Part shown: positions 3,317 through 17,323 of the stretch, piece by piece
Numbering within the stretch: position 1 is the stretch's first letter
Layout of the letters: each line of letters starts with the position of its first letter
Source of the DNA: a virus
Direction: 5' to 3' (one strand)
DNA: 64,000 nt
IMG/VR virus record: IMGVR_UViG_3300020477_000014
Location: 32,001-96,000 of that record
The notes under the pieces: generated by a model
Seen by the model: the letters and a program-made list of their open reading frames with translations, nothing else
The model's database searches: none
Told to the model about the DNA's origin: nothing
Position numbers and translations under genes: made by a program

Positions 3317-3998
3317 GAAAACTATAATTTTAATGGGGAACGGTCCATCCCTGAAGGACGTAGACTTTTCGTTGTTAGATGGTTACGATACTTTTGGTCT
3401 CAATTCGGCATATCGCGCATATGAAAGAATGGACTGGTGGCCTACTTATCACGGCTGTTTTGATTATAGAGTTACAGATAATCATAGGAGCAAATTCGAG
3501 GACTTGATAACCAACAGTCCTATTAAGAAATGTTTCTATATTCGTGATTTTGGAACAAATGATGGGTTTCAATATGTAAACTTGCAACAATATGGTACAA
3601 CGCAAAAGTTCAATAATTCGCTAGCTGATTTTGATTCATTTCATGATAATGGAAATTCAGGCGCCAATGCTAGTTCAGCGGCTGTTTGCATGGGTTACAA
3701 TAGGATCATACTTTTGGGCGTAGATTGCAATTATGTAGAATTCGTCGACGGCTCCCAACGAGATGGTCCGGGGCTGAAAATGGAGAAAACGCCCGAACAT
3801 AATCCTAATTATTGGTTTGATGATTACCAGCAAAAGGGCGATGAATACAATATTCCTCGAGGGATGGATTTTCATATGCCTACCTGGAATGCGTTTGCTT
3901 ACAATGCTGCTCATAATAATATAGAAGTCATTAATTGCAGCCCCATTACCACCTTAAGGTGCTTTAAGAGAATGAACATAGAGGAAGCGCTAAGGTGA
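3309..3998 (+). CDS. CstII (GT42)/DUF115 Maf-like sialyltransferase-fold protein
   Basis: ATG at 3309 overlaps the upstream stop. IILMGNGPSLK, FGLN and IILLGVDC match the CstII-type GNGPSL / N / GxD motifs. Confidence 0.7.
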   Translation: MNKKTIILMGNGPSLKDVDFSLLDGYDTFGLNSAYRAYERMDWWPTYHGCFDYRVTDNHRSKFEDLITNSPIKKCFYIRDFGTNDGFQYVNLQQYGTTQKFNNSLADFDSFHDNGNSGANASSAAVCMGYNRIILLGVDCNYVEFVDGSQRDGPGLKMEKTPEHNPNYWFDDYQQKGDEYNIPRGMDFHMPTWNAFAYNAAHNNIEVINCSPITTLRCFKRMNIEEALR

Positions 3999-4405
3999 TA
4001 AGGATTTATTCAAAAATAGAACCAGATTTATTATTACATGTGATCAATAGATTCTCTGAGATTGACGGTCGAACTGAAGTTATTCCGGCAGATAATTTTT
4101 TACAATGCGCTACACTGAAGATGGAGAAGGGTAAAACTTTTGCCCCTCATTATCATATAAAAAAGGAAAGAACCTATACCGAACAAATTGCACAAGAATC
4201 GTGGATTGTAGTAAGGGGTGCTGTCAAATGTATATTGTATGACATAGATCACACTATTGTAGCCACTCCGATATTGTATGCTGGAGATGCAAGCTACACA
4301 TTGCATGGAGGGCACACTTATGAGATTCTGGAACACGATACAATAGTTTATGAATATAAGACGGGACCCTATGAAGGGCAAAAGTTCGATAAGGTGTTGA
4401 TATGA
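3995..4405 (+). CDS. Cupin-fold metalloprotein (sugar isomerase/epimerase-like)
   Basis: PHYH...QESWIVVRG...GGHTY cupin metal ligands, in a sugar cluster. Confidence 0.65.
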   Translation: MIRIYSKIEPDLLLHVINRFSEIDGRTEVIPADNFLQCATLKMEKGKTFAPHYHIKKERTYTEQIAQESWIVVRGAVKCILYDIDHTIVATPILYAGDASYTLHGGHTYEILEHDTIVYEYKTGPYEGQKFDKVLI

Positions 4406-4944
4406 TTAAAATAAATATGGGCTGTGGGTGGAGAAATTTTGGCAATGATTGGACCCATATCGATGCCGGCAACTATGATCATTTGAATTATAAAAGTATA
4501 ATAAACTTAAGTCAATTTCAAGACAATTCTGTTGGTTTAATTTACTCTTCTCATGTTATTGAATATTTTGATCGTACAGAAGTGATCCCTTTATTACAAG
4601 AGTGGAAAAGAATTTTGAACAAGGGTGGCACTCTAAGAATAGCAGTCCCTAATTTTGAAGCTATCGCTACTTTATATTCAAAAGGAAAAATTCCCCTTGA
4701 TAGAGTCTTGGGTCCACTTTACGGAAGAATGCAGATGTCTGATTGCACGATTTATCACAAAACAGTTTATGATTTCGTTTCTTTGAAAGAATTATTAGTG
4801 GAGCTTGGTTTTTCAAAAGTAAAAAAATATAATTGGCGGAAAACGGATCATGCCATATTTGACGATTATTCCCAAGCATATCTTCCCCACATGGATAAAG
4901 AAAATGGAACTTTAATAAGTTTAAATGTTGAGTGTGTTAAATGA
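4402..4944 (+). CDS. Class I SAM-dependent methyltransferase (Methyltransf_11-like)
   Basis: INMGCG motif I, SSHVIEYF, EWKRILNKGGTLRIAVP. Confidence 0.85.
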   Translation: MIKINMGCGWRNFGNDWTHIDAGNYDHLNYKSIINLSQFQDNSVGLIYSSHVIEYFDRTEVIPLLQEWKRILNKGGTLRIAVPNFEAIATLYSKGKIPLDRVLGPLYGRMQMSDCTIYHKTVYDFVSLKELLVELGFSKVKKYNWRKTDHAIFDDYSQAYLPHMDKENGTLISLNVECVK

Positions 4945-5534
4945 GTTTTGAGATAATTCAAAAATTTGAAAAAGAGATTGCTCGTTTTTATGGAGCCCCA
5001 TATGCTGTAGCTGTCGATTGTTGCACTCATGCAATCGAACTTTGCCTAAGACAGCAAAGCATAAAGCACTACACAGTTCCCAAAAGAACTTATATATCTG
5101 TTCCGTTTTTGGCTGATAAATTAGGCATAAACTTTGATTGGCGAAATGAGGAATGGCAAGATTATTATTACCTCGGAGGGACAAATATTATCGATGCTGC
5201 GGTTCTTTGGAGAGAGAATTCTTATATACCAAACACCTTTATGTGTGTTAGTTTTCAATATAGAAAACATTTATCTTTAGGAAGGGGAGGAATTATCTTG
5301 ACAGATAACAAAAAAGATGTTATATTATTAAAAAAGATGTCTTATGATGGTCGCTTGCCTGATGTTCCCTGGCGGGAACAGGACATTGACACAATGGGGT
5401 ATCACTATTACATGACACCGGAAACAGCAAATCTTGGTTTGCAAAAATTACCAAATGCCATAAAAACAAAACCAAAACAATGGATAGTGACAGATTGGCC
5501 AGATTTAACAAAAATGGAGATTTTTAAAAAATGA
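4941..5534 (+). CDS. Short DegT/DnrJ/EryC1/StrS-family PLP aminotransferase
   Basis: FEKEIARFYGAPYAVAVDCCTHAIEL, IIDAA (PLP Asp) and SFQYRKHLSLGRGG (Schiff-base Lys). Only 197 aa. Confidence 0.8.
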   Translation: MSFEIIQKFEKEIARFYGAPYAVAVDCCTHAIELCLRQQSIKHYTVPKRTYISVPFLADKLGINFDWRNEEWQDYYYLGGTNIIDAAVLWRENSYIPNTFMCVSFQYRKHLSLGRGGIILTDNKKDVILLKKMSYDGRLPDVPWREQDIDTMGYHYYMTPETANLGLQKLPNAIKTKPKQWIVTDWPDLTKMEIFKK

Positions 5535-6502
5535 AAAAAGCTTTAATTACCGGTATTGCCGGTCAAGACGGAAGCTATCTAACAGAACACTTGCTTTCCA
5601 TGGGATATGAAGTTCATGGTATAGTTCGACGGCATTCGGTGGCAGAGAATCAAAATTTTCGCTTACACCGATTAGGATCCGAACCTAATGTGTACACTTA
5701 TTATGGTGATTTGCTGGATTACCCTTCACTAGTTAGAATAATTTCGATAGTGAAGCCAGACGAGATTTATAATCTTGGTGCCATGAGTCACGTAAGGGTT
5801 AGTTTCGATATGCCTTCTTTTACAATTCAAACAAACGCCTTGGGTGTTTTAAACATGCTTGAAGTTTACAGAACTCTTTCCCCGGAAGCGAAATTCTATC
5901 AAGCTAGTTCTTCTGAGATGTTCGGAAACTCAGTTGATTCTGACGGTGTTCAGAGGCTTACTACTCCTATGAACCCAGTCAGCCCCTATGGGTGCGCTAA
6001 AGTTATGGGGTATAATTTAGTTAGACACTATCGACATGCTTACAAATTACATGCATGCAATGGAATTCTATTTAATCACGAATCCCCCCGACGAGGCTCT
6101 AACTTTGTGACCAATAAGGTTGTCAAAGGAGCCGTCTCTATCAAGAAGGGACTTCAAGACAAACTTGAGCTTGGCAATATGGACTCATCCCGGGATTGGG
6201 GTCATTCAAAAGATTATGTTAAGGCTATGCACATGATAATAAACCATGACACCCCCGAAGAATTTATTGTTGCAACCGGAGAAACACACTCAGTGAGAGA
6301 TTTGTGCGATGTGGTATTTTCTAAATTGGGAATGAACTATGCAGATTATATTGTTCAAAATCCGAAATATATGAGACCAGAAGAATTGAGATATCTAAAG
6401 GGAGACCCCTCGAAGGCTCATACAGTCTTGGGGTGGAAGCCAGAATATACTTTTGAAACAATGATAGAGGAAATGATCGAAAGATGGGAAAAAGAACTAT
6501 AA
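5531..6502 (+). CDS. gmd: GDP-mannose 4,6-dehydratase
   Basis: KKALITGIAGQDGSYL, YNLGAMSHV, FYQASSSEMFG, SPYGCAK, GILFNHESPRRG, RDWGH. Confidence 0.96.
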   Translation: MKKALITGIAGQDGSYLTEHLLSMGYEVHGIVRRHSVAENQNFRLHRLGSEPNVYTYYGDLLDYPSLVRIISIVKPDEIYNLGAMSHVRVSFDMPSFTIQTNALGVLNMLEVYRTLSPEAKFYQASSSEMFGNSVDSDGVQRLTTPMNPVSPYGCAKVMGYNLVRHYRHAYKLHACNGILFNHESPRRGSNFVTNKVVKGAVSIKKGLQDKLELGNMDSSRDWGHSKDYVKAMHMIINHDTPEEFIVATGETHSVRDLCDVVFSKLGMNYADYIVQNPKYMRPEELRYLKGDPSKAHTVLGWKPEYTFETMIEEMIERWEKEL

Positions 6503-6714
6503 AGAAATTCAACCGCGGCGACTTGGTGAAATGGTATGAGGTATACAATGATGTCTACATTACCAAAGATTATGGAACCGGAATCGTGATGGAGAGAATG
6601 GAACAAAATTACGGCTTCATCGATGGACCGGTTACTACCTACAGGGTATATAGATTAAAATATAGTGATATTGTTTTGTATGGGTCGGACTTAATAGAGG
6701 AAATAAATGAATAA
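6484..6714 (+). CDS. Small hypothetical protein (SH3/KOW-like GDLVKW motif)
   Basis: Fills the gap between gmd and the next gene with overlaps at both ends. FNRGDLVKW...GIV pattern. Start uncertain. Confidence 0.5.
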   Translation: MGKRTIKKFNRGDLVKWYEVYNDVYITKDYGTGIVMERMEQNYGFIDGPVTTYRVYRLKYSDIVLYGSDLIEEINE

Positions 6715-8371
6715 AAGATTATGCGTGTTGCAGGTCACTCCTACCGAACCTAATAGGGATCATATCGAATTATTTCACAATAAAAAAGATTGTGATTTTT
6801 ATTTTGTAACACATGATAGCCAACATGCTGATGCATTAAAATTTTGTCCCAACACTACGTGGACAGATACAAGAAATATATTAGCTGAAATGGTTCCTAA
6901 AAAATATGATTATTATGCTTTTGTGGATTATGATTATCGTTTTCATCCCCAAGGCGATCTTGGGGTACTTGAGCAGATATTGTCTGATTTAGAACATTTC
7001 AATCCAGCAGTTTTGACTTGTTATCCGGGTTCTGGGCTTATAACTCCCTTTGCTTCCGATATGGATTATAAAAACAAACATACCCACTCTGTAATACCTT
7101 TTACGCATTGTGGAATGAAGGTGGTCCACCATAGCCTTATGAATTGGTTTTTCCCAATGGTTACGAAATTTGGTGGTGGAGTGGAAGCATGTCATCTTTT
7201 TAACATAATGGAGCTTCCTTTTTTGCAAAATATTGTTTGCACTCATCAAATTGTATATGATAATGGAGTTACTGACATGAATGCGCCACACAATCGCGAT
7301 GGTGCACAATCTAAATTGAACATGGACAAGATGTGGTCATGGTTGTATCCTTATTTTAACAAAAGAAAAACCCTAAGAGATAAAGAAGTAAAACTCAGGT
7401 GGGGCGACAGTATCCCAACACGTATCGAGGAATACACTTCATATACTAATTCACTAACAATTAAAGAGACGTACGTCGGCTTATTGACTGGAAAAGTGAT
7501 TCCCAGTCCGGCAGAAAAAGAGGTAGATTATTACAGTTTAAAATATAAAGATAAAATTAAGAAGTTTTTCGATATAAATCATGAACATTTTGCTCCCAAA
7601 TTTGGAAATCTAAAATCTAGAAATGATACAATTGTTATTGTAGGAAATGGACCTTCTTTAAAAGAGGAATATTTCGAGATTTTACGACGCGATGATATTG
7701 ATACTTTCGGATTGAACGTTGCATATCGTTTTTTTGAGAAGATGAATTGGTATCCTAAGTTTTATGGATGTTTTGATTACGCTGCCACGAACACCCACAG
7801 ATCCAGTATTGCCTCTTTTATACGAGATAAGGATTGTCCTATAGAAAAGTTTTTCTTATTGGAAAGACCTAGTATCGAGGCAAGACTAAGCAACACTAAG
7901 TTGTATTTCGATGAGGACGTCCGCGGCGATCGTAAATATGTAGAAAGACCCCATAATCAAGACGGAATCGGATGGCCCACGTGGGGCACCAGGAATAATA
8001 AGATATCTTGCACGGGCGCAAATGCAATTCGCACCGCAATGGAATTAGGATACAAAAAGATTATTTTAATTGGTCATGATGCCAGCTACACTCCTTCGAA
8101 AAAAATCGAGGGACATTCTCAAGTATCGTCGGACAGATATGAGGTGACGGAAAAATCTCAAAATCCTAATTATTTTTGGCAAGATTATTACGAGAAGGGA
8201 GATATTTATAATAAGCCGGGGGATGCATTACCTGCATGGAAAAATATGGCTGATTGTGTAAGCCAAACTTATCCACATGTGGATGTAGTTAATTGCTCGA
8301 AGAACTCTAGAGTAACTTTTTTTCGGTTTGGTGAGTTTTTTAAAGAGATTGGGGTAAAAAATGAAGACTAA
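6707..8371 (+). CDS. Two-domain glycosyltransferase: N-terminal GT-A-like plus C-terminal CstII/DUF115-like
   Basis: N-terminal YAFVDYD (DxD). From about 7620, IVIVGNGPSLK, FGLNVAYR and IILIGHD form a clear paralog of 3309-3998. Confidence 0.7.
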   Translation: MNKRLCVLQVTPTEPNRDHIELFHNKKDCDFYFVTHDSQHADALKFCPNTTWTDTRNILAEMVPKKYDYYAFVDYDYRFHPQGDLGVLEQILSDLEHFNPAVLTCYPGSGLITPFASDMDYKNKHTHSVIPFTHCGMKVVHHSLMNWFFPMVTKFGGGVEACHLFNIMELPFLQNIVCTHQIVYDNGVTDMNAPHNRDGAQSKLNMDKMWSWLYPYFNKRKTLRDKEVKLRWGDSIPTRIEEYTSYTNSLTIKETYVGLLTGKVIPSPAEKEVDYYSLKYKDKIKKFFDINHEHFAPKFGNLKSRNDTIVIVGNGPSLKEEYFEILRRDDIDTFGLNVAYRFFEKMNWYPKFYGCFDYAATNTHRSSIASFIRDKDCPIEKFFLLERPSIEARLSNTKLYFDEDVRGDRKYVERPHNQDGIGWPTWGTRNNKISCTGANAIRTAMELGYKKIILIGHDASYTPSKKIEGHSQVSSDRYEVTEKSQNPNYFWQDYYEKGDIYNKPGDALPAWKNMADCVSQTYPHVDVVNCSKNSRVTFFRFGEFFKEIGVKNED

Positions 8372-8795
8372 AAACGATAGTGATCTAAAGAGAGTGCTGG
8401 AAAAGGACGGCGTTCATTGTTTGGAATTAAAGAAATATGAAAATTGTTCTACTATAAATTTAGCTGAATTGAGAGAAGATTTGGGCATGGGGTCTTGGGC
8501 AGTGAGAATTGCTTACAACGATCTTTTTGGTGGAGTAGTCATTCAGCAACAGCCCGGCGAGGGAAATCGAAAACACTTCCATCATGATGCAGACGAGAAT
8601 TGGGTAATTTTAGATGGAGAGTGGGAATGGTGGATTGATGGCATTGGAAAACGCCGAGTGAAACAACATGATATAATAGTAGTGCCCCGAGGCGTTTGGC
8701 ACCAAATAACGTGCATAGGAGATTCGCCAGGAGTACGGTATGCAATTACACGACCGGATGTAGACCATGTATACGAAGACAACAACGATAAATAA
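8361..8795 (+). CDS. Cupin domain protein
   Basis: KHFHHDADENWVILDGE...VVPRGVWHQI cupin_2 motifs. Confidence 0.85.
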   Translation: MKTKNDSDLKRVLEKDGVHCLELKKYENCSTINLAELREDLGMGSWAVRIAYNDLFGGVVIQQQPGEGNRKHFHHDADENWVILDGEWEWWIDGIGKRRVKQHDIIVVPRGVWHQITCIGDSPGVRYAITRPDVDHVYEDNNDK

Positions 8796-9501
8796 TATTA
8801 CTTTTAATTATTCTAACAAGATTGTGGTAGTAGTAGGGGGATCCCGTGGCATTGGCAAGGAAATCTGCAAGCAATTTGTTTTGGCTGGCGCTACGGTCTA
8901 TTGTTTATCACGAACGCCGCTTAATACAAAAGGAGTGACACACATTGTGTGTGATATATCTATCGAGAAAGATATTGACAAAGCTATCGCACAATTGGAG
9001 TCTATTGATTTTTTGATTAATGTAGCCGGCACCAACTTATGTGAGCCGATTGAAAATATAACAACCACAGAATGGGACCGGCTGATGAACACGAATTTGA
9101 AATCGTTTTTTTTGATTTCTAAAAAGGTGATTCCTTTGATGAAGGAGAAGAATTCCGGTCGCATTGTTAATGTCTCTTCTATTGCCGGCAGACATAAGAG
9201 CGTGGTTAGCGGCGTACATTATACATCTAGCAAATATGGTATTGTGGGATTAACTAAGCAGTTGGCACATGAGGTATCTCGATATAATATTTTGGTAAAC
9301 TGCGTGTGCCCAAGCCAAACAAGAACTGAAATGTTGGAAGCTTCCATGACTGAGGAACAGTTGCATAATTTAGAAAAACAAATTCCTGTACGTCGAATTG
9401 CTACCACTGTTGAGCAATCGTTACCTGTGTTGTTTCTTTGTTCTGATGGTGCTTCTTACATTAGTGGCGCTACAATCGATATTAACGGGGGTCAATTCTA
9501 A
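8767..9501 (+). CDS. Classical SDR oxidoreductase
   Basis: GGSRGIG, INVAG, VNVSS, YTSSK (YxxxK), VNCVCP, IDINGG. Confidence 0.92.
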   Translation: MYTKTTTINNITFNYSNKIVVVVGGSRGIGKEICKQFVLAGATVYCLSRTPLNTKGVTHIVCDISIEKDIDKAIAQLESIDFLINVAGTNLCEPIENITTTEWDRLMNTNLKSFFLISKKVIPLMKEKNSGRIVNVSSIAGRHKSVVSGVHYTSSKYGIVGLTKQLAHEVSRYNILVNCVCPSQTRTEMLEASMTEEQLHNLEKQIPVRRIATTVEQSLPVLFLCSDGASYISGATIDINGGQF

Positions 9502-10179
9502 ATGCATAGGGATATAGATATAAACGTTTTGATTGCTGTTAGAGGCGGTTCTAAGCGCATTCCTGGAAAGAATACGAGACCTTTCGGGGGAGCCTCGATG
9601 CTTGAATTGAAAATTCAACAAGCTCTTCGATTAAAAGAAGTATCTGCGGTGGTGGTGACGTCAGAAGATGACTCCATGTTGCAGATAGCAGAAGATCTGG
9701 GAGCAGTTGCTATGAAGAGGGATTCTTATTATGCTAGCGATACGGTTCCAATGGGAGAAGTATATGTTCATCTTGCGTCATCTCTTAGTTGTAAGGATGT
9801 TTTGTGGACGCCGGTCACAAGTCCATTGGTGACCGATAAAACCATACAAGAGTGTATAACTTTTTATAAAACCAGGCCAGAGTTTGATTCTGTAGTAACC
9901 ACCAATCTGGTCAAGGAATATATGTGGTTGGGCGATAAAGCCATCAACTATGATCCACTGAATCATCCCAGATCCCAGGATTTGCCGGATGTTTATGCTT
10001 TGAATTTCGCAGCCAACATTCTTTCCCGCGAGATGATGATCAAAAACAGGAACATTATAGGAGATAAATTTTATCCTTATATGATAGACGATGTTGAATC
10101 TGTGGACGTGGATACTGAATTTGATTTTGTGATAGCAGAGTTTTTATATAATAACAGAGGAAAAGATTGTGACATATAA
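9502..10179 (+). CDS. Acylneuraminate/ulosonate cytidylyltransferase (NeuA/KdsB-like)
   Basis: IAVRGGSKRIPGKNTR, TSED, SPL, SVDVDTEFDF. Confidence 0.9.
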   Translation: MHRDIDINVLIAVRGGSKRIPGKNTRPFGGASMLELKIQQALRLKEVSAVVVTSEDDSMLQIAEDLGAVAMKRDSYYASDTVPMGEVYVHLASSLSCKDVLWTPVTSPLVTDKTIQECITFYKTRPEFDSVVTTNLVKEYMWLGDKAINYDPLNHPRSQDLPDVYALNFAANILSREMMIKNRNIIGDKFYPYMIDDVESVDVDTEFDFVIAEFLYNNRGKDCDI

Positions 10180-10843
10180 GATAGAGGTACCCCCAATGTG
10201 CGAACCGGAAATCTTGCCAAAAGTAATACCATATTTTAAAAACCGATCTAAATTTGTGGATGTTGGGGCATCTGATGGCTGGTATACATATGTTGCCGCC
10301 AAGGAAATGCCATCAGGTTCGACAATAATTGGTTTCGAACCGGTACCATGGATTTTTGACAAATACAAGAATCATTATGTTGCATCTTGGGCGCCAGAGG
10401 ATTGGTTTAAAAACAAAACAATACACTGTTATAACCAAGTGGTTTCGGATCAATCCGGAATAGATACAAAGTTTTATAAAACAAAAAACCATTCAGGAGT
10501 TATGGATCCTCTTTTATTACTAAAAAAACCAGAAGCTTTTGAGGAAAGTTGGGATATTCCAACGACTAAGTTGGATGATTTTTTGGATCCTTCTGAAAAG
10601 GGAGTATTAATAAAAATTGACGTGGAAGGCGGTGAAGATAAGGTTATCAAGGGCGGTAACTATTATTTTTCCAATTGTGTAGAGTGTTATGTGTTTTTAG
10701 AATTGCACAATTCTTATCTCTTAAATAAAGGAGTGCCGCCACAAACCGTTGTGAAATATTTCACAGATCGAGGTTATGAAAAAATTAAATTAGGTGGCCA
10801 CGGGCGAATCGAATGGTATATTTTTAGGAAAGAAATCAAATGA
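10169..10843 (+). CDS. FkbM-family methyltransferase
   Basis: FVDVGASDG, IGFEPVP, LIKIDVEGGEDKVIKG. Confidence 0.9.
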   Translation: MTYKIEVPPMCEPEILPKVIPYFKNRSKFVDVGASDGWYTYVAAKEMPSGSTIIGFEPVPWIFDKYKNHYVASWAPEDWFKNKTIHCYNQVVSDQSGIDTKFYKTKNHSGVMDPLLLLKKPEAFEESWDIPTTKLDDFLDPSEKGVLIKIDVEGGEDKVIKGGNYYFSNCVECYVFLELHNSYLLNKGVPPQTVVKYFTDRGYEKIKLGGHGRIEWYIFRKEIK

Positions 10844-11778
10844 GAAATATCAAGATCTTTATTGTTACATATAAGAGGGGAGATGTCCTAAATAATACTT
10901 TGCAAAAGTTATTCAAAGAAACCGATTTCTCCTTAATACCGAATACCGAAGTTAATATTATTAATAATCATTCAGATTTTTGGATTGATGATGAATTTCG
11001 GGACCAAGTGAATGTTATACACAATTCTACGCGCCCCGATTGGGATGTTGGTAATCTCGCACGTAATTGGAACGAAGCACTTTTGCACGGCTTTAAAGAT
11101 TTAAAAAACCCAGACTCTAAGGTGGTGGTAACGATGCAGAACGACATTGTTTTGCACCCCAATTGGGCCACCAATTTGCTTAAAATGCATAAAAAATATA
11201 ATTTCATAACTGGTTGCGCAGGTGATAATATTATTAGTTATACGGCGGAGGCAGTGAAGAAGATCGGATTATGGGACGAAAGGTTTTGTTCCATATCTCA
11301 CAAAGAAGCCGATTATTATATTAGAGCGCTTATTTATAACAAAGAATATTCCATTATAAATGATCAGTTTCATAAGCGTTATCTAAATGCAGACGCATGG
11401 CTTCCTTTGGATACTGGTGATTACTTAGGCAATGAAAAAGAATGGATGAAGATAAAAGCCACCAACTTGTCTACAGAAGCAATGAACCATAGCACTCAGA
11501 TATTTTACTGGAAATGGAAAAACACATGGAAGACTCAACCTTCTTATAATGGATGGTTCGTTAATTGGTCGTCGGATTTTATAACCGATCCGCCATCTCC
11601 CCCGACCGTTCCGAATTTCATAAAATATTATTATTTTGAAAAAGATCTTGACAATTTGCAAAAAAAGAATTATATTGGTTGGAGAAGTGGCGATCTTTGG
11701 TTGAGATCTACGGGGAACCTGGACATTGATGAACTTCCACCTCCCAGAGAATCAACTACAGGAGAAATTTCGAAATGA
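10840..11778 (+). CDS. GT2-like (GT-A) glycosyltransferase
   Basis: IFIVTYKR...TL, MQNDI, IGLWDERF...EADYYIR. Confidence 0.75.
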   Translation: MRNIKIFIVTYKRGDVLNNTLQKLFKETDFSLIPNTEVNIINNHSDFWIDDEFRDQVNVIHNSTRPDWDVGNLARNWNEALLHGFKDLKNPDSKVVVTMQNDIVLHPNWATNLLKMHKKYNFITGCAGDNIISYTAEAVKKIGLWDERFCSISHKEADYYIRALIYNKEYSIINDQFHKRYLNADAWLPLDTGDYLGNEKEWMKIKATNLSTEAMNHSTQIFYWKWKNTWKTQPSYNGWFVNWSSDFITDPPSPPTVPNFIKYYYFEKDLDNLQKKNYIGWRSGDLWLRSTGNLDIDELPPPRESTTGEISK

Positions 11779-12470
11779 TAACTACTAAAAATTTACAAAT
11801 AATAGACACTGCGCAAACTCTTTATGATGCTTTTAACGATTTTATTTTGAGCGACGATACCAAAGTGTTCGGAAAATTACTCGCAAGAGCCATTTTGCTC
11901 GATCGAGTAAAAGATGTTCCTGGTGATATAATAGAGTGTGGTGTTTTTAAAGGGACCGGTGTTGTTTCTTTTCTAAAAATAAAAAAATATTTATGCCCCA
12001 ATTCTCATAAAAAAGTTATTGGTTTTGATTTTTTTGATACTGACGGATTGTTAAAAAGCCTATCAAACCAAGACCAAGAGGCTATGAGTGCATTATTCAA
12101 AGATAGAGGATTCGAACATGAGCAGGGATTTGTTTCTTATTTAAAGCAGTCAATTGAATCCTTTGGGTTTCAAGAGCACGAATTTGAACTTGTACAAGGA
12201 GATATTTCAAAAACTATAAAAGAATATATATCCGATAAGCCTGGATTGAAAATTTCTCTTTTATATATTGATTTAGATATTGAAAAGCCAACTTATGATG
12301 TTTTGTGCGCCACTTGGGATAGAATGTCGAAGGGGGGCATGATAGTGTTTGATGAATATGCATATCATTGCTGGTCGGAGTCGATTGGTGTGGATAGGTT
12401 TTTCAAAGATAAGAATGTAGTAGTGAGGTCTCTAAATTTCATGGGACCCACAGCATATGTAATAAAATAA
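11775..12470 (+). CDS. TylF/MycF-family O-methyltransferase
   Basis: VPGDIIECGVFKG, GFDFF, LYIDLDIEKPT, GGMIVFDEY. Confidence 0.9.
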   Translation: MITTKNLQIIDTAQTLYDAFNDFILSDDTKVFGKLLARAILLDRVKDVPGDIIECGVFKGTGVVSFLKIKKYLCPNSHKKVIGFDFFDTDGLLKSLSNQDQEAMSALFKDRGFEHEQGFVSYLKQSIESFGFQEHEFELVQGDISKTIKEYISDKPGLKISLLYIDLDIEKPTYDVLCATWDRMSKGGMIVFDEYAYHCWSESIGVDRFFKDKNVVVRSLNFMGPTAYVIK

Positions 12471-12483
12471 AAAGAGAACAAAC

Positions 12484-13215
12484 ATGAATATATTGATACC
12501 AATGGCTGGCGAAGGCAGTCGATTTAAAAAAGAAGGCTTTAAAAAACCAAAACCACTAATAGACGTTAACGGAAAACCTATGATTAAGTGGGTTGTGGAT
12601 AATGTCGGAATTGACGGAAAATATATTTTTATCGTACAAAAGGCACATACAATAAAGTACCCATATTTAGTTGATGAGCTTACAACTATGGCAAAGGACG
12701 TAGAGGTGTTGACGGTAGATGGATTAACAGAAGGCGCCGCATGTACAGCATTGATAGCCAAACACTTGATAGACAATGACGAGCCATTACTAATTTGCAA
12801 TTCAGATCAGTGGGTGGATTGGGTCCCAGAACATTTTTTAAAATTTATAAAGAGAAAAGATTGTGATGGGGCATTATTAACTTTTTTCTCTGATAGTCCA
12901 AAGCATTCTTATTCTCGATACAATTATAATACCAGAGTGGTAACAGAAGTTGCCGAAAAACAAGTTATAAGCAATTTTGCCACTGTGGGAATATATTATT
13001 GGAGAAAGGGTAGCGAATTCGTGGAATGTGTTAATAAAATGATAGACAAGAATCTAAGAGTTAATAATGAATTTTATTTATGCCCAGCCTATAATGAGTT
13101 GATTTTCCACAAAGACGGGAAGGTGGAATTGTATCCTATTTGTGAGATGAGGGGAATGGGTACTCCTATGGAATTAGAAAGGTTTTTACTCTTATTAGAG
13201 AAAGAAGGCGTTTAA
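12484..13215 (+). CDS. Sugar-phosphate nucleotidyltransferase (NTP_transferase family)
   Basis: ILIPMAGEGSRF...KPKPLI, TEGAACT, ICNSDQ, VAEK, ATVGIYYW, EFYLCPAYN, MGTP. Confidence 0.92.
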   Translation: MNILIPMAGEGSRFKKEGFKKPKPLIDVNGKPMIKWVVDNVGIDGKYIFIVQKAHTIKYPYLVDELTTMAKDVEVLTVDGLTEGAACTALIAKHLIDNDEPLLICNSDQWVDWVPEHFLKFIKRKDCDGALLTFFSDSPKHSYSRYNYNTRVVTEVAEKQVISNFATVGIYYWRKGSEFVECVNKMIDKNLRVNNEFYLCPAYNELIFHKDGKVELYPICEMRGMGTPMELERFLLLLEKEGV

Positions 13216-14399
13216 TGAAGTTTTTTCGTCAAAGTGTAGAAAAAGAGAAATACATCATAGTGGAGTATTTTTTAAAAAGCAAGACCACATTGAGAGATGC
13301 TGCATGGTCTTTGGCAATAGGTCAAAGTGTAGGAAACCCCAATGTCAGAAATCATTGGGAAACCGATGAGCTTTTTGAGAACCATTCTTGTTTGATTATG
13401 GGTGATGAAGAGAAGTTAAAACAAATAAGCGAAGGTAAAGTTAAAATAGCCTTTCCAATAGCAAATACAGACTTTAAGACAGATGGAGTGTCTCATTTGC
13501 TTTGTCAATTTATGGGCGGACAAATGGATATAGATATTGTTCAAAAATGCCACATGTTGAATGTAGTACTACCTCAGCATGTTGAAGATAAATATTTTTT
13601 AGGACCAAAATACGGCATTGAAGGTATCAGAGATTTTACTAATAGTCACGATAAGCCTCTTTTTGGAGGGATTGTTAAGCCCAAGATTGGCGTTACAAGT
13701 AGCGTGTTGCTTGAAATGGTACGAGAGATGGTAGAGGGGGGCATCAATTTCATCAAAGAAGATGAGATCATGTCAAACCCTGCTTGTTGCCCAATAGAAG
13801 AAAGAGTACCTTTAATTATGGATTATCTCAAAGGCAAGGATGTGATTTATGCTGTTTGTATTAATTGTGATCCGCTGCATGTTATTGATAGAGTTAAAAG
13901 AGTTCATGAATTAGGAGCCAACGCTGTCCATATCAATTTTTGGAGCGGACTTGGAGTTTATAAATCAATTAGAGAATTGGATTTGCCAATGTTTATTCAC
14001 TTTCAAAAAAGTGGCGACAAAGTATTAACAAACAAGAATCATGATTATCATATTTCTTGGGACGTTGTGTGTGATCTGGCAGGTCTTATGGGTGTGGATT
14101 TTATACACGCTGGAATGTGGGGTGGCTACATGTCAGATAATGAACAGGAATTAAAGAACACTTTATCTGTTTTGCACAACAGGAGTGTAATGCCGGCTCT
14201 AAGTTGCGGAATGCATGCAGGTCTAATTCAAGCAATAAACAAAAGATTTGGAACAAATTATATGGCTAATGTCGGCGGCGCTATACATGGACACCCTAAC
14301 GGCTCTAAAAGTGGCACCATGGCGATAAGACAGAGTGTAGATGGCGAACATGGACAAGAATATGAAATTGCGATAAAAAAATGGGGGATCGTAAAGTGA
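13215..14399 (+). CDS. RuBisCO-like protein (form IV, RLP)
   Basis: GPKYGIEGIR, GGIVKPKIG, NFIKEDE, DFIHAG, LSCGMH, VGGAIHGHP follow the RuBisCO large-subunit barrel motifs. Loop-6 Lys is absent. Confidence 0.92.
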   Translation: MKFFRQSVEKEKYIIVEYFLKSKTTLRDAAWSLAIGQSVGNPNVRNHWETDELFENHSCLIMGDEEKLKQISEGKVKIAFPIANTDFKTDGVSHLLCQFMGGQMDIDIVQKCHMLNVVLPQHVEDKYFLGPKYGIEGIRDFTNSHDKPLFGGIVKPKIGVTSSVLLEMVREMVEGGINFIKEDEIMSNPACCPIEERVPLIMDYLKGKDVIYAVCINCDPLHVIDRVKRVHELGANAVHINFWSGLGVYKSIRELDLPMFIHFQKSGDKVLTNKNHDYHISWDVVCDLAGLMGVDFIHAGMWGGYMSDNEQELKNTLSVLHNRSVMPALSCGMHAGLIQAINKRFGTNYMANVGGAIHGHPNGSKSGTMAIRQSVDGEHGQEYEIAIKKWGIVK

Positions 14400-14423
14400 C
14401 TGACATTTTTTGGAGAACCATTA

Positions 14424-14867
14424 GTGAAAATGATTGCACATAGAGGAAATCTCAGAGGGCCGAACCCGGACCAAGAGAATAAACCAGAGTATATAGAGGC
14501 GGCATTGGCGGAACACTACGATGTGGAAGTGGACGTATGGCGATCTGAAAACAAGTGGTATCTAGGTCACGACGAACCACAATATGAGATAGATTCAGAA
14601 TTTCTCGTAAATGAGAGAATATGGTGTCATGCAAAGAATTTACATGCATTTCAAGATTTGTTGGTATTAGATGCGCATTGTTTTTGGCACCAAAAGGATG
14701 ATTATACCTTGACAAGTAGTAATTTTATTTGGGCGTATCCTGGCCAACCATTGTCGCCGATGTCCATTTGTGTAATGCCTGAATTAACAGCTTATACCAC
14801 AACAGATGTCTTAAGGTGTGCCGGGATCTGTTCCGATTGGATAGAGAAATTTGGGGAAATTTTATGA
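14424..14867 (+). CDS. Small GDPD/PLC-like phosphodiesterase-fold protein
   Basis: MIAHRGN, ENKP, DVEVDVW, LGHD, WCHAKN. GTG start with GGAGA 7 nt upstream. Confidence 0.75.
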   Translation: MKMIAHRGNLRGPNPDQENKPEYIEAALAEHYDVEVDVWRSENKWYLGHDEPQYEIDSEFLVNERIWCHAKNLHAFQDLLVLDAHCFWHQKDDYTLTSSNFIWAYPGQPLSPMSICVMPELTAYTTTDVLRCAGICSDWIEKFGEIL

Positions 14868-15544
14868 TATTGGCTTGGCAGCAAATTCCTTCTCCAATGG
14901 TTTCAGAGATCTTGTGTTGTAATTCTGCTGGCATAGTGTTGGATTTGGAACATGGGTGTTTTAATAATGAGACTCTTTACACTTGTATTCAAATTATTAA
15001 ATCTAAAAATAAAAAATGCATAGTTAGGCTGACAGAAGTTTCCAAAACAATAATTCGCTATTGTTTGGATGCCGGCGCTGATGGATTAATTTTTTCTACA
15101 ATTGAAACAACAGAACAATGTGAAAAAATAATGGAATATAGCTACTATGCTCCCAAGGGCAAGCGAGGCTTGGGGTTGGTCCGCCAAAATCTATGGGGTG
15201 AGAAAAACCTTTTGTCACCAGATCCTATTATTATACCCCAAATCGAAACAAAGGATGCTGTGGATAATTTGGAAAACATCTTAAAATTTAATTTCGATTA
15301 TTATTTAATAGGCCCTTATGATCTGTCTTTAAGTTTAAAAATCCCGGGAAAATTTGACAATCCTCAATTTATATGTTATATTAATAAAGTGAATGAATTG
15401 ATAGAAAGGTCCAGGCTGGCAGTTCATATTCCCAATGACGTTCCTAATCAAATTAGCAAATATAGGGATTATGGAATAAAATGCCTGGGCATGGACACGA
15501 TAGGGCTATTAGAATATATGAAGGAGAACAACAAGCATGCTTAA
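14864..15544 (+). CDS. HpcH/HpaI class II aldolase family protein
   Basis: ATGA-coupled start at 14864. VLDLEHG, IVRL, LDAGADG, YAPKGKRGLG, IPQIET, IGPYDLSLSL. Confidence 0.88.
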   Translation: MILAWQQIPSPMVSEILCCNSAGIVLDLEHGCFNNETLYTCIQIIKSKNKKCIVRLTEVSKTIIRYCLDAGADGLIFSTIETTEQCEKIMEYSYYAPKGKRGLGLVRQNLWGEKNLLSPDPIIIPQIETKDAVDNLENILKFNFDYYLIGPYDLSLSLKIPGKFDNPQFICYINKVNELIERSRLAVHIPNDVPNQISKYRDYGIKCLGMDTIGLLEYMKENNKHA

Positions 15545-16514
15545 TTTCGAAAATTTAGGAGAAAGATTTGTTCAAGTAGTTAACGGATCGGATTGGCTAG
15601 AATTACAAGAAAAATTTAACAAATGTGATGACATATACGTGTTGGGTCATGGAGGAAATTTAGCCGTGGCTGATCATGCTGCTGTAGATATTACTCGCTT
15701 ATCTAACGGACAAAAGAATGCTATTTGCCCCAGTAGTGGTGTTGTAGCCACCTCTTTTATCAATGACACCAATTTTGAGCAGTGGATGGTAAATTGGTTA
15801 TCTTGTCGTACCAATACGAGAACTGAAGCACAAATGAAGAAATCGTTAGTACTGGGAATATCGTCTTCTGGCGCCTCTATCGATGTTTTAAAAGCACTAC
15901 AGTGGGCGAATGACAACGGGATGGAAATAGGGATGATTAGCTCCAAGGATCTTACTTATGATATTTCTAATTTGACTAAAGTTATATTGGGCGCCGAATA
16001 TTACCACACCGCAGAGGTTCTAACACTTCTTTTAACCTACCAACTAACTCATGGATCAGGGAAAGAGTGCCCCCCTATAGGACAAAATACTCCTGATGCA
16101 TTGCGCGCACTAAACTGGAAAGGGGGTCACATCCGGGAACACAGCTATCCGGATGAAAAAATTAATTTAGGAATCGATTTTGATAAAGTGATTCATGGTT
16201 GTTCGCGAGGATATTATGATGGCACTATTTATGATCCCCCTATTCATGGAGCCGCCGAGGCACTTGAAAAATTATCTCAAAGTTATACTTTAATTATTTA
16301 TACCTGTAAAGCCAAGCCAGATCGTGGACTTGTGAATGGAAAAACAGGAACAGCTTTAGTTTGGGAATGGCTAGAAAAAAATAATCTTTCTCAATTTGTA
16401 AGTAAAGTTACAGCAGAAAAGCCACGAGCAGTGTGCTATATTGACGACAAGGCTGTACGATTTATCGATTGGGAATCTTGCATGAAAGAGTTGGAGGAAA
16501 TAGGCATTCTATGA
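15537..16514 (+). CDS. SIS-domain sugar-phosphate isomerase (GmhA-like) fused to a HAD-family phosphatase
   Basis: N-terminal GHGGNLAVADHAAVD and LGISSSG resemble GmhA GNGGS..AQH..E / GISTSG. C-terminal GIDFDKVIH (DxD), IYTC and YIDDKA. Confidence 0.8.
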   Translation: MLNFENLGERFVQVVNGSDWLELQEKFNKCDDIYVLGHGGNLAVADHAAVDITRLSNGQKNAICPSSGVVATSFINDTNFEQWMVNWLSCRTNTRTEAQMKKSLVLGISSSGASIDVLKALQWANDNGMEIGMISSKDLTYDISNLTKVILGAEYYHTAEVLTLLLTYQLTHGSGKECPPIGQNTPDALRALNWKGGHIREHSYPDEKINLGIDFDKVIHGCSRGYYDGTIYDPPIHGAAEALEKLSQSYTLIIYTCKAKPDRGLVNGKTGTALVWEWLEKNNLSQFVSKVTAEKPRAVCYIDDKAVRFIDWESCMKELEEIGIL

Positions 16515-17323
16515 TCTTGATAACAGGACATAAAGGCTATATCGGAAGTCATCTCTATAAGGCTTTAAAATCATTTGACATGGAAGTGTATGGGATTGAT
16601 TTAAAAGACGGTCACGATATCGCTTATTGTTTGCCTGATCGAGATTTCGATTATGTATTCCATCTAGCAGCACTACCACAAGTCGAATATTGCAACAAGC
16701 ACCCTAGTTATGCACTTAAGCAAAATGTGGGTGCAACTTCGATACTTCTCGAGTGGGCTTATGGACACAATGTCAAGAAGGTCATTTTTTCATCTTCAGC
16801 AGCAGTGTATGGCGATGGAGGTGGTCCTAAATCTCCTTATGGTTTACATAAGTTGATGGCAGAAATGGAGTGTAAACTATATTCAGATTTTTATAATATA
16901 GATACGGTTTGTTTGCGATATTTTAATGTATATTCAGAAGATCAACCGTACGGCGGCTCTTATTCTACGGTTATTGCAGCTTGGATGGAGATGATGAGGA
17001 ATGGTCATCCTTTGCGTTTGGATGGCACAGGCAAACAAACGAGAGACTTTGTTCATGTAGAAGATATAGTGGCTGCTAATATATTTTGCATGAAGAGTAA
17101 ATTAAAATTTAATGGAGAGTGTTATGATGTGGGCTCTGGTCAGTCGACTGCGCTTAACACTATAAAATATTATATCGATCATCGATATTCTAATGTGAGT
17201 TGGTTATGGACCCCTGAAAGAGAGGGAGACATCTTTAATTCGGTTGCTGACATATCTAAGTTGGCAGAAATAGGATGGACACCACAAATTGACATAAAGA
17301 CTGGCTTATCTAGATGTTTTTAG
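16511..17323 (+). CDS. NAD-dependent epimerase/dehydratase (extended SDR)
   Basis: ATGA-coupled start. ILITGHKGYIG, HLAA, FSSSAAVYG, SPYGLHK, LRYFNVY, TRDFVHVEDI. Confidence 0.92.
   Translation: MILITGHKGYIGSHLYKALKSFDMEVYGIDLKDGHDIAYCLPDRDFDYVFHLAALPQVEYCNKHPSYALKQNVGATSILLEWAYGHNVKKVIFSSSAAVYGDGGGPKSPYGLHKLMAEMECKLYSDFYNIDTVCLRYFNVYSEDQPYGGSYSTVIAAWMEMMRNGHPLRLDGTGKQTRDFVHVEDIVAANIFCMKSKLKFNGECYDVGSGQSTALNTIKYYIDHRYSNVSWLWTPEREGDIFNSVADISKLAEIGWTPQIDIKTGLSRCF

What the first reader, a model, noticed from the sequence alone, without database searches (positions are those of the whole stretch)
13215..14399. Phage-encoded form IV RuBisCO-like protein with an unusual active site
Seen in sequence: a complete 394-aa RuBisCO-fold protein inside a phage glycan island. 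By-eye alignment to spinach RbcL numbering suggests K175/K177 (VKPK), carbamylation K201 with D203/E204 (KEDE), H327 (FIHAG), S379 and G403/G404 are kept. E60 appears to be G (IGQSVGNP), H294/R295 appear to be Q/K (HFQKSG), and loop-6 K334 appears to be Y (GGYM). Established: without K334 it cannot be a CO2-fixing RuBisCO, and characterised RLPs act in methionine salvage or acid/branched-sugar catabolism. Inference: this residue set and a biosynthetic, viral context suggest a different enolase/tautomerase/transcarboxylase-type reaction on a sugar phosphate.
Basis: partly seen in the sequence, partly recalled or inferred. Interest (0 to 1): 0.88.

Follow-up and report, generated by a model that had tools for sequence, protein, structure and literature searches.

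The report
Phage RuBisCO-like enzyme, sugar-activation cassette
A large marine T4-like phage carries an intact RuBisCO relative that cannot fix CO2; its gene overlaps, and in relatives is fused to, a sugar-activating enzyme gene, so it probably helps build an unusual activated unit for a surface glycan, a role never tested for this enzyme family.

Summary
Window 13215-14399 (+) encodes a complete 394-aa RuBisCO large-subunit homologue (AlphaFold pLDDT 96).

It is not MtnW, OiaX or a carboxylase. It belongs to a separate, fully supported clade whose 24-position active-site signature is essentially unchanged from phages to Pelagibacter, CPR bacteria, DPANN archaea and Legionella.

This clade matches the phage/Beckwithbacteria 'form IV-like' group of Jaffe et al. 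2019 (function unknown), so a phage RLP is not new in itself. This scan has also met it before on other DNA (35 notes, at least 27 genomes).

What I could not find in the searched literature is the context:
- A specific nucleotidyltransferase lies beside the RLP in 79/80 viral and 45/49 cellular loci, and is fused to it in both orders.
- A 147-aa minimal GDPD-fold phosphodiesterase (73/80 viral loci) and a 107-aa cupin (65/80, absent here) usually accompany them.

Best reading: an enolising isomerase-type enzyme in a nucleotide-activated glycan-precursor pathway. The substrate is unknown.

The parts
12484..13215 (+). Nucleotidyltransferase (243 aa), the constant partner of the RLP
   Evidence: Pfam NTP_transferase 1.1e-07. 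Best PDB hit is 4evw, an uncharacterised NDP-sugar pyrophosphorylase, at 4.7e-12. Its stop overlaps the RLP start as TAATG. A homologue lies near the RLP in 79/80 viral and 45/49 cellular loci. It is fused to the RLP in both orders: P0041 NTPtr-RLP, P0122 RLP-NTPtr.
13215..14399 (+). RuBisCO-like protein (394 aa) of the 'form IV-like' clade. The Mg/carbamate enolisation core is kept; the carboxylation and cleavage residues are replaced.
14424..14867 (+). Minimal GDPD-fold phosphodiesterase (147 aa). Homologues begin MIL/MII, so the true start is probably the ATG at 14430.
   Evidence: Motifs HRGN, EN, E-x-D and HD are invariant in 35 homologues. Profile against PDB: GDPD 7e0v, E=0.0064. AF2 pLDDT 97. 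In VIA-align the top 22 chains are all GDPD/PLD-type, Z 7.7-10.6, with 137-143 of 147 residues aligned, and then a drop to Z 6.3. Present in 73/80 viral loci and about 22/49 cellular loci.
14816..15544 (+). HpcH/HpaI-type class II aldolase (242 aa); an accessory gene specific to this window
   Evidence: Pfam HpcH_HpaI 7.3e-15 and NCBIfam HpaI 9e-22, below cut-off. No homologue in any of the 129 other RLP loci.
15537..16514 (+). Fusion of a GmhA-like SIS domain with a small HAD-like phosphatase half (325 aa); accessory
   Evidence: NCBIfam gmhA 1.4e-06 and PDB 1tk9 0.004 over residues 23-138. The C-terminal HAD motifs IDFDKV, IIYTCKA and YIDDK were read by eye. Shared only with L003/L004 and one or two viral loci.
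16469..17323 (+). NAD-dependent sugar epimerase/dehydratase (284 aa); accessory
   Evidence: Pfam Epimerase 2.1e-45; NCBIfam galE/heptose-epimerase-like, below cut-offs. Homologues are sporadic near the RLP: 21/80 viral loci, rarely adjacent.
72..12470 (+). Remainder of the glycan island: GT4 x2, MptE-like x2, methyltransferases, DegT fragment, GDP-mannose 4,6-dehydratase, 144-aa cupin, SDR, PseF/KdsB-like CMP-transferase, FkbM methyltransferase, GT2, TylF methyltransferase

Best explanation
The protein is an active, non-carboxylating member of the RuBisCO superfamily. It works as one step of a small biosynthetic cassette (nucleotidyltransferase, RLP, mini-GDPD phosphodiesterase, and usually a 107-aa cupin). 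The cassette makes a nucleotide-activated sugar-like or polyol-phosphate unit for a surface glycan.

Shown: the carbamylated-Lys/Mg2+ core that enolises a phosphorylated 2-ketose is intact (K175, K177, K201, D203, E204). Both phosphate-site remnants are kept (G381/G403/G404, and K/R295 with H327).

Inferred: because the residues for CO2 addition, hydration and C-C cleavage are replaced (E60G, N123G, H294Q, K334Y), the enediolate is simply reprotonated. That gives an isomerase, epimerase or tautomerase outcome on a ketose phosphate whose distal group is polar or anionic, possibly a bisphosphate. The product is passed to, or received from, the coupled nucleotidyltransferase. In Legionellaceae a LicD-type transferase would then install the unit as a phosphodiester-linked decoration. 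The phage uses the cassette inside its glycan island, presumably to remodel a host or virion glycan during infection.
For: (1) The catalytic core is kept and the carboxylase residues are replaced, by pairwise and multiple alignment.
(2) The 24-position signature is essentially identical in 23 cellular genomes down to 36% overall identity, including Pelagibacter, Beckwithbacteria, DPANN archaea, Nonomuraea and Legionella. It is also conserved in all 30 clade representatives. dN/dS is 0.08-0.14. Together these indicate one specific, selected reaction.
(3) The clade forms one side of a branch with support 100, apart from true MtnW, OiaX-like and form III-like clades.
(4) Coupling to the nucleotidyltransferase: it is adjacent in 79/80 viral and 45/49 cellular loci; fusions exist in both domain orders; the stop and start overlap in the window. 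As a control for the fusion logic, form III RuBisCO is found fused to its substrate-supplying ribose-1,5-bisphosphate isomerase (P0159, P0204).
(5) Partners: the mini-GDPD in 73/80 viral loci and the cupin in 65/80, with the dominant order NTPtr-cupin-RLP-miniGDPD. The mini-GDPD fold and motifs are confirmed. The cupin's closest solved relative is a 113-aa mannose-6-phosphate isomerase.
(6) Glycan context everywhere: a GT2 recurs in 13 cellular loci; LicD is present in all 4 Legionellaceae loci; in Pelagibacter the gene sits in a heptose/GT9/CMP-transferase region.
(7) Precedent for an RLP-plus-cupin operon in which the RLP is a 1,3-isomerase: R. rubrum and R. palustris (PMC5893883).
Against: - There are no biochemical data for any member. 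The substrate, the product, the nucleotide used and the order of steps are all unknown.
- The nucleotidyltransferase/mini-GDPD pair also occurs without any RLP in 17 cultured Synechococcus myoviruses, with HAD or class II aldolase partners. So the RLP is a replaceable feeder step rather than the heart of the system, and could serve a side branch.
- This window lacks the 107-aa cupin found in most cassettes.
- One 17-kb cellular locus (L005) shows no nucleotidyltransferase.
- A decarboxylase or hydrolase outcome, as in OiaX or OiaT, is not excluded by sequence.
Confidence: 0.68

Rival explanations
1. It is an MtnW/YkrW-type 2,3-diketo-5-methylthiopentyl-1-phosphate enolase, or a DeepYkr-type 5-methylthioribulose-1-P isomerase, giving the phage a methionine/MTA-salvage function.
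For: The best PDB sequence hit is G. kaustophilus MtnW (2oej, 1.9e-34). An RLP-plus-cupin pairing exists in the MTA-isoprenoid shunt. The partner families (RLP or HAD, class II aldolase, cupin) mirror the MtnB/W/X/C/D set.
Against: NCBIfam MtnW models score 159 and 126 bits against cut-offs of 409 and 514. It lies outside the true MtnW clade. The position of the MtnW general base (K98, as I recall from the literature) is G/Q here. The hydrophobic methylthio pocket of the MtnW and DeepYkr representatives (P295, S/A298, L/V327) is K/R295, D298, H327 here, which is polar. No mtn genes are nearby. The constant partner is a nucleotidyltransferase.
Confidence: 0.05
2. It runs methionine-salvage-like chemistry on a non-thio 5-substituted ribulose-1-phosphate (5-hydroxy, 5-deoxy or 5-phospho). 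In this version the RLP enolises a diketone, the mini-GDPD removes or rearranges the phosphate, and the cupin acts as an acireductone-type oxygenase or an isomerase. The product is an unusual keto-acid or deoxy-sugar unit that is then nucleotide-activated.
For: The enzyme families match: RLP, or alternatively HAD plus class II aldolase in RLP-less cassettes, plus a cupin. RLP and class II aldolase never co-occur in the 129 RLP loci examined, which fits non-orthologous replacement as seen for MtnW+MtnX versus MtnC.
Against: This rests purely on analogy. No dehydratase accompanies the RLP cassette. The cupin's nearest solved relative is an isomerase, not a dioxygenase. It does not explain why a nucleotidyltransferase is the most constant partner.
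Confidence: 0.12
3. It is a catabolic RLP of the OiaT/OiaX type (decarboxylase or transcarboxylase/hydrolase on a 3-oxo acid-sugar phosphate), or an auxiliary gene that redirects host central carbon metabolism.
For: Jaffe et al. raise the possibility that phage RLPs augment host metabolism. Weak similarity to the OiaX model, 3.5e-35. An HpcH-type aldolase sits two genes downstream in this window.
Against: OiaX scores 122 bits against a 700 cut-off, and the protein lies outside the OiaX-related clade. K334, which the OiaX-like representatives keep, is an invariant Y here. No kinase, dehydrogenase or transporter of a catabolic route is conserved. The HpcH aldolase is unique to this window (0 of 129 loci). 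All conserved neighbours are biosynthetic.
Confidence: 0.07
4. It is a catalytically dead or purely structural RuBisCO-fold protein, for example a scaffold for the nucleotidyltransferase.
For: Several canonical catalytic residues are replaced.
Against: The metal/carbamate triad, K175 and the phosphate-binding glycines are invariant across domains of life, and the replacements themselves (Q294, Y334, C380, H239, N241) are invariant too. That pattern is typical of a re-tooled active site, not a decayed one.
Confidence: 0.04

Closest known systems
'Form IV-like' RuBisCO-related proteins of phages and Beckwithbacteria (Jaffe, Castelle, Dupont & Banfield 2019, Mol Biol Evol; PMC6389311)
   Same: Phage-borne (some Myoviridae, genomes of about 200 kb, IMG/VR contigs), highly divergent from other RLPs, grouping with Beckwithbacteria, with key residues differing from known form IV. 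The window's protein is 57% identical to a Beckwithbacteria MAG protein that has the same signature.
   Different: The paper leaves the function 'unclear' and frames the genes as possible carbon-metabolism or gene-transfer vehicles. It does not report the nucleotidyltransferase fusions, the mini-GDPD and cupin partners, or the presence in SAR11, DPANN archaea and Legionella. I could not compare directly with their sequences, which are not held.
MtnW / YkrW DK-MTP-1-P enolase (G. kaustophilus, PDB 2oej/2oem)
   Same: Same fold (TM 0.85), about 26% identity, same Mg/carbamate core; a non-carboxylating enolising enzyme.
   Different: Separate clade, far below the equivalog cut-offs, no K98-type base, a polar rather than hydrophobic distal pocket, and a biosynthetic glycan context instead of methionine salvage.
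DeepYkr RLP (5-methylthioribulose-1-P 1,3-isomerase) with its adjacent cupin (MTXu-5-P methylsulfurylase) in R. rubrum / R. palustris
   Same: The RLP is encoded next to a small cupin that processes its product, and the RLP acts as an enolisation-based isomerase. This is the best mechanistic analogue.
   Different: Different clade and pocket residues. No nucleotidyltransferase or GDPD in that pathway. Homology between the two cupins was not tested. This window lacks the cupin.
Form III RuBisCO (T. kodakarensis 3a12, P. horikoshii 2cwx)
   Same: Best structural matches (TM 0.87-0.89). K175, K177, K201, D203, E204, H327, S379, G403 and G404 are shared.
   Different: E60, N123, H294 and K334 are replaced, so carboxylation is not expected. 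NCBIfam form III scores 161 bits against a 497 cut-off.
Type II phosphomannose isomerase / GDP-mannose pyrophosphorylase (NTP_transferase plus cupin isomerase; from my own knowledge)
   Same: The cassette's nucleotidyltransferase and small cupin resemble a split version. The transferase hits mannose-1-P guanylyltransferases weakly (4e-05), and the cupin hits a cupin-type mannose-6-P isomerase.
   Different: Weak similarity only. No phosphomutase; instead an RLP and a GDPD-fold enzyme.

Membership tests
RuBisCO large-subunit superfamily | N-terminal alpha+beta domain plus C-terminal TIM barrel; match to Pfam PF00016 | tested here: met
   PF00016 at 120 bits against a 30.1 cut-off. AF2 pLDDT 96.2. 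TM 0.85-0.89 to RuBisCO and RLP structures.
RuBisCO large-subunit superfamily | Carbamylatable Lys and Mg ligands (K201, D203, E204) and K175 | tested here: met
   KEDE and VKPK motifs align. They are invariant in the clade. Carbamylation itself is not testable here.
Bona fide RuBisCO (forms I-III) | E60, N123, H294 and loop-6 K334, needed for carboxylation and cleavage | tested here: not met
   G, G, Q and Y at these positions. The form III model scores 161 bits against 497, and form II 86 against 489.
MtnW (DK-MTP-1-P enolase) | Score above the NCBIfam equivalog cut-offs; placement in the MtnW clade | tested here: not met
   159 against 409 and 126 against 514 bits. A true MtnW control (P0221) scores 652 and 641 and sits in a different clade.
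MtnW (DK-MTP-1-P enolase) | Lys at the N123-equivalent position as general base; hydrophobic methylthio pocket | tested here: not met
   G102/Q103 in place of K. K295, D298 and H327 in place of P, S and L. The role of K98 is recalled from the literature.
OiaX / OiaT (3-oxo-isoapionate-4-P enzymes) | Score above the NCBIfam OiaX cut-off; clade membership | tested here: not met
   122 against 700 bits. The OiaX-related representative P0227 lies in another clade.
'Form IV-like' phage/Beckwithbacteria clade (Jaffe et al. 2019) | Groups with phage and Beckwithbacteria sequences, apart from other RLPs | tested here: met
   The clade split has support 100. A Beckwithbacteria MAG protein (L013) is 57% identical with an identical signature. 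380 IMG/VR stretches encode relatives.
IV-GOS clade (Tabita et al. 2007) | Identity with the GOS-derived RLP clade | not testable with these tools
   The paper is not held. The GOS paper mentions new RuBisCO-homologue branches but gives no sequences.
GDPD / PLC-like phosphodiesterase superfamily (the 147-aa partner) | TIM-barrel GDPD fold with HRG, E-x-D and HD catalytic/metal motifs | tested here: met
   The motifs are invariant. Profile hit to GDPD 7e0v at E=0.0064. VIA-align Z 7.7-10.6 to 22 GDPD/PLD chains over 137-143 of 147 residues. There is no Pfam hit, and it is far shorter than any characterised GDPD.

The most novel reading that the evidence does not exclude
This RLP clade catalyses a reaction new to the RuBisCO superfamily, and it would be the superfamily's first anabolic role. 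It would isomerise, by enolisation, a ketose (bis)phosphate whose product is nucleotide-activated by a dedicated transferase. With a miniature GDPD and a small cupin, the product would be installed as a previously undescribed decoration on surface glycans of SAR11, Legionella, CPR bacteria and DPANN archaea. Hundreds of large phages would carry the same pathway to rewrite those glycans during infection.
Probability: 0.45. Interest if true: 0.8.

Novelty: new member of a known kind. Interest (0 to 1): 0.6.

Why it matters
RuBisCO-like proteins are a classic case of functional divergence, yet only a handful of their reactions are known (from my own knowledge), and all of those are catabolic or salvage reactions. 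Here an entire clade with a frozen, re-tooled active site is tied to a sugar-activating enzyme in surface-glycan clusters. The tie rests on adjacency in about 95% of loci, fusions in both orders, and overlapping stop and start codons. The clade is present in at least 380 IMG/VR viral contigs, in the ocean's most abundant bacteria (SAR11), in cultured Legionella and in tiny CPR and DPANN cells.

If confirmed, this would add a biosynthetic branch to the RuBisCO superfamily and define a new activated glycan building block. It would also help explain part of the hypervariable surface-glycan regions that phages and SAR11 share. The question is directly testable, because cultured carriers exist and the proteins are small and predicted to fold well.

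Tried and rejected
- Megablast of the island and tblastn of two clade RLPs against 50,697 deposited phage genomes found nothing. No cultured or GenBank phage record in that collection carries this RLP; the window's own record may be hidden.
- PHROGs has no family for the RLP.
- Tabita 2007 could not be read, so the IV-GOS identity stays a recollection.
- Literature searches for an RLP with a nucleotidyltransferase, or for viral form IV auxiliary genes, gave nothing relevant.
- Looking up the Legionella maceachernii RLP by exact sequence failed.
- Pfam and single-sequence PDB searches gave nothing for the 147-aa protein, and Foldseek was weak (E about 0.02, TM about 0.4). The profile search and VIA-align settled it.
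- An HMM of the 107-aa cupin finds no copy anywhere in the window. The window's other cupin (8361-8795) has no counterpart in other RLP loci.
- I did not run complex prediction, because I make no claim that the proteins bind each other.
- I considered and rejected the idea that HpcH, SIS-HAD and the epimerase are core parts: they are absent from nearly all other loci.
- Host assignment was not resolved. The phage lacks psbA, the GC content is 37-43%, and the nearest cellular RLPs are at 61-63% identity.
Full report
**1. The observation**

Window 13215-14399 (+) is a single ATG-initiated ORF of 394 aa. The complementary strand is riddled with stops. The protein matches Pfam RuBisCO_large (1.4e-34). 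Its top matches among solved structures are RuBisCO or RLP chains, the best being G. kaustophilus MtnW (2oej, 1.9e-34) and P. horikoshii form III RuBisCO (2cwx, 3.7e-33). An AlphaFold2 model from a 60-sequence alignment has pLDDT 96.2 and superposes on form III RuBisCO (TM 0.87-0.89) and MtnW (0.85), at about 25% identity to each. The fold is certain, but structure alone does not place it in any characterised subgroup.

- Kept: K175, K177, K201, D203, E204, H327, S379, G381, G403, G404.
- Changed: E60G, T65N, W66P (with a one-residue insertion, 'GNP'), N123G, H294Q, R295K, H298D, K334Y, G380C.

**2. The genome**

The window is bases 32001-96000 of a 189,712-bp IMG/VR virus that CheckV rates 100% complete. 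The genome encodes a T4-type Gp23 capsid protein, a baseplate wedge subunit and a primase. All genes in the window lie on one strand, including giant structural ORFs. It has no psbA, so it is probably not a typical cyanomyovirus; the host is unresolved. Window positions 72-17323 form a dense glycan island.

**3. Which RLP it is**

All NCBIfam equivalog models score far below their cut-offs: form III 161 against 497, MtnW 159 against 409 and 126 against 514, OiaX 122 against 700.

An exhaustive search of 1.84 billion representatives shows a gradient. About 25 full-length representatives are 30-57% identical to the query, and identity then sits at about 30% for generic RuBisCO/RLP sequences.

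In a tree of 106 sequences, the 30 that share the signature form one side of a branch with support 100 (FastTree). The other side holds clades that I labelled with NCBIfam: true MtnW (P0221, 652 bits), OiaX-related (P0227), form III-like (P0185) and several unnamed RLP groups.

The signature covers G60-Q-S, N65-P66, G123-Q, K175, K177, K201, D203, E204, H239-x-N241 at the end of strand beta-4, Q294, K/R295, H327, Y334, S379, C380, G381, G403 and G404. It is essentially invariant in the clade. It is virtually letter-for-letter identical in 23 cellular genomes down to 36% overall identity.

Synonymous sites between phage copies are saturated while dN is 0.13-0.35, giving dN/dS of 0.08-0.14 where computable. 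This is a re-tooled, selected active site, not a decaying one.

**4. What is already known**

Jaffe et al. 2019 (PMC6389311) found about 80 phage RLP-related sequences. They came from IMG/VR and groundwater, and some were on Myoviridae, including one curated phage of about 200 kb. These grouped with two Beckwithbacteria sequences as a 'form IV-like' outgroup to other RLPs, with 'possible functionality unclear'. The window's protein is 57% identical to a Beckwithbacteria MAG protein with the same signature, so I assign it to that clade by proxy.

The existence of phage RLPs is therefore not new. I found no paper in the searched library that links an RLP to a nucleotidyltransferase or to glycan synthesis. 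This scan has met the same cassette before on other DNA (35 notes in at least 27 genomes). My tests were run independently and agree with those notes.

**5. Context: the main evidence for function**

- *In the window.* The upstream 243-aa nucleotidyltransferase ends in a TAATG overlap with the RLP start. A 147-aa ORF follows 25 nt downstream.
- *Fusions.* Among the close homologues listed, several are 634-651-aa fusions of NTP_transferase with the RLP. A representative with the opposite order (RLP then NTP_transferase, 667 aa) also exists. The logic that fusion indicates consecutive steps is illustrated within the same superfamily: form III RuBisCO is found fused to IF-2B-type ribose-1,5-bisphosphate isomerase, which makes its substrate (P0159, P0204).
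- *Cellular loci.* In 49 cellular loci, a homologue of the window's transferase lies within about 1.5 kb of the RLP in 45. Three of the four exceptions are short contigs. The loci come from a complete Pelagibacter chromosome, SAR11 single-cell genomes, Patescibacteria, Beckwithbacteria, Saccharibacteria, Verrucomicrobia, Planctomycetes, Woese-, Nano- and Micrarchaeota, Elusimicrobia, Nonomuraea rosea, Azospirillum oleiclasticum, three Legionella species, Tatlockia, Francisellaceae and Turneriella.
- *Viral loci.* IMG/VR holds 380 stretches encoding relatives, on contigs up to 294 kb. In the best 80, the transferase is present in 79, the 147-aa protein in 73, and a 107-aa cupin in 65. The dominant order is transferase-cupin-RLP-147aa.
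- *Accessory genes.* The window's HpcH aldolase (0 of 129 loci), SIS-HAD fusion and epimerase are accessories specific to this window. The window belongs to the cupin-less minority.

**6. The partners**

- *147-aa protein.* It keeps the HRG, EN, E-x-D and HD motifs invariantly. As a profile it hits a GDPD at E=0.0064. Its model (pLDDT 97) aligns over 137-143 of 147 residues to 22 GDPD/PLD-type chains at Z 7.7-10.6, before a drop to Z 6.3 for unrelated barrels. It is a stripped-down but complete GDPD-fold enzyme with intact catalytic residues.
- *Cupin.* It has an H-Y-H...E metal motif, and its nearest solved relative is a 113-aa cupin annotated as mannose-6-phosphate isomerase (E=0.0014).
- *Transferase.* It is closest to an uncharacterised NDP-sugar pyrophosphorylase (4evw) and hits mannose-1-P guanylyltransferases only weakly.
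- *Other recurrent neighbours.* GT2 glycosyltransferases recur in 13 cellular loci. A LicD-family phosphotransferase is present in all four Legionellaceae loci. From my own knowledge, LicD enzymes transfer a phospho-alcohol from CDP-X to a glycan.
- *Cellular settings.* In Pelagibacter the genes sit among GmhA-, HldE- and HldD-like genes, a GT9 and a CMP-transferase. In Nonomuraea they form a small island flanked by integrases, with a GT2 and a 2-hydroxyacid dehydrogenase.

**7. A related RLP-less cassette**

No deposited phage genome carries the RLP. However, 17 cultured Synechococcus myoviruses carry the mini-GDPD. In S-CAM9 and B23 it sits near, or directly beside, a HAD-NTP_transferase fusion. 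In S-SM2 it sits with an NTP_transferase, a class II aldolase/adducin-family protein, a small HAD-like protein and a cupin.

The window's transferase is 47-49% identical to the transferase domain of those fusions, and 53% identical to a HAD-NTP_transferase fusion in Pelagibacter. The class II aldolase was never found in the 129 RLP-bearing loci.

So the transferase and the mini-GDPD are the constant pair. The RLP (with a cupin), or HAD and class II aldolase enzymes (with a cupin), look like alternative feeder steps. All of these are enzymes that work on phosphorylated ketoses or their enediolates. They are the same families used, in alternative combinations, in methionine salvage (MtnB, MtnW+MtnX or MtnC, MtnD; abstract and my own knowledge). 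That is an analogy, not evidence of the same chemistry.

**8. Mechanism**

- *Shown.* The enolisation machinery and both phosphate-site remnants are conserved. The residues for CO2 addition, hydration and C2-C3 cleavage are replaced by other invariant residues.
- *Inferred.* The enzyme forms a metal-stabilised enediolate of a phosphorylated 2-ketose and reprotonates it, giving an isomerase, epimerase or tautomerase outcome like the DeepYkr 1,3-isomerase. The distal pocket is polar and cationic (K/R295, H327, D298), not hydrophobic as in the methylthio-binding RLPs. The substrate's far end is therefore probably a phosphate, carboxylate or hydroxyl. The invariant Y334, Q294, C380 and H239/N241 are candidates for the new acid/base and binding roles.
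- *Unknown.* Whether the RLP acts before the transferase (on a sugar phosphate) or after it (on an NDP-linked ketose), which nucleotide is used, and what the mini-GDPD does (hydrolysing a cyclic or diester phosphate, or transferring the phospho-unit).

**9. Verdict**

The interpretation points in the right direction but overstates the novelty of a phage RLP. The gene is a new member of the published 'form IV-like' clade. Its real interest lies in the well-supported but biochemically untested link to nucleotide activation of a glycan precursor.

Noticed in passing
P0176 (metagenomic protein, 583 aa): A TIR domain fused to the N-terminus of a divergent RuBisCO-like protein of a different RLP clade. 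This is an odd pairing of a defence/signalling NADase-type domain with an RLP.
   Followed up: no
P0159 and P0204 (726 and 742 aa): Fusions of IF-2B-type ribose-1,5-bisphosphate isomerase with form III-like RuBisCO that has a full carboxylase residue set, i.e. a single-chain version of two steps of the AMP/nucleotide-salvage CO2-fixing pathway.
   Followed up: partly
L138-L140 (Synechococcus phages S-SM2, S-CAM9, B23) and 14 further records: Cultured cyanomyoviruses carry the mini-GDPD without any RLP. It sits with a HAD-NTP_transferase fusion, or with an NTP_transferase, a class II aldolase-family protein and a cupin. Most are annotated 'hypothetical protein', and flanking small HAD-like genes are annotated 'phosphoheptose isomerase'. 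These are culturable systems for testing the shared half of the pathway.
   Followed up: partly
window 4941-5534 (+): A 197-aa ORF matches only pieces of the 360-position DegT/DnrJ/EryC1 aminotransferase model (best stretch residues 6-54, two stretches). It looks like a truncated or split aminotransferase gene.
   Followed up: no
window 15537-16514 (+): A 325-aa protein that appears to fuse a GmhA-like SIS isomerase domain to a small HAD phosphatase half (motifs IDFDKV, IIYTCKA, YIDDK). A 69%-identical copy lies upstream of the RLP in a 193-kb relative (L003).
   Followed up: partly
window 21327-27779, 31534-43026, 44735-48460, 50176-53319, 59441-62548 (+): Giant ORFs of 2150, 3830, 1241, 1047 and 1035 aa downstream of the island, next to a baseplate wedge gene. 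Presumably virion, fibre or baseplate proteins; not examined.
   Followed up: no
window 19130-20326 (+): A 398-aa protein with a C-terminal VanY D-Ala-D-Ala carboxypeptidase domain and a weak tape-measure PHROG hit, probably a virion-associated cell-wall hydrolase.
   Followed up: no
L080, L090, L091, L096, L100, L112, L113 (IMG/VR contigs named GVMAG): Several contigs binned as giant-virus MAGs carry the same RLP at 60-61% identity. Either nucleocytoviruses also have the cassette, or large phages were binned as giant viruses.
   Followed up: no
L054 (Nonomuraea rosea): In this actinomycete the cassette (mini-GDPD, RLP, cupin, NTP_transf_3, GT2, 2-hydroxyacid dehydrogenase) sits between integrase and transposase genes, which suggests it moves as a mobile island.
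   Followed up: no
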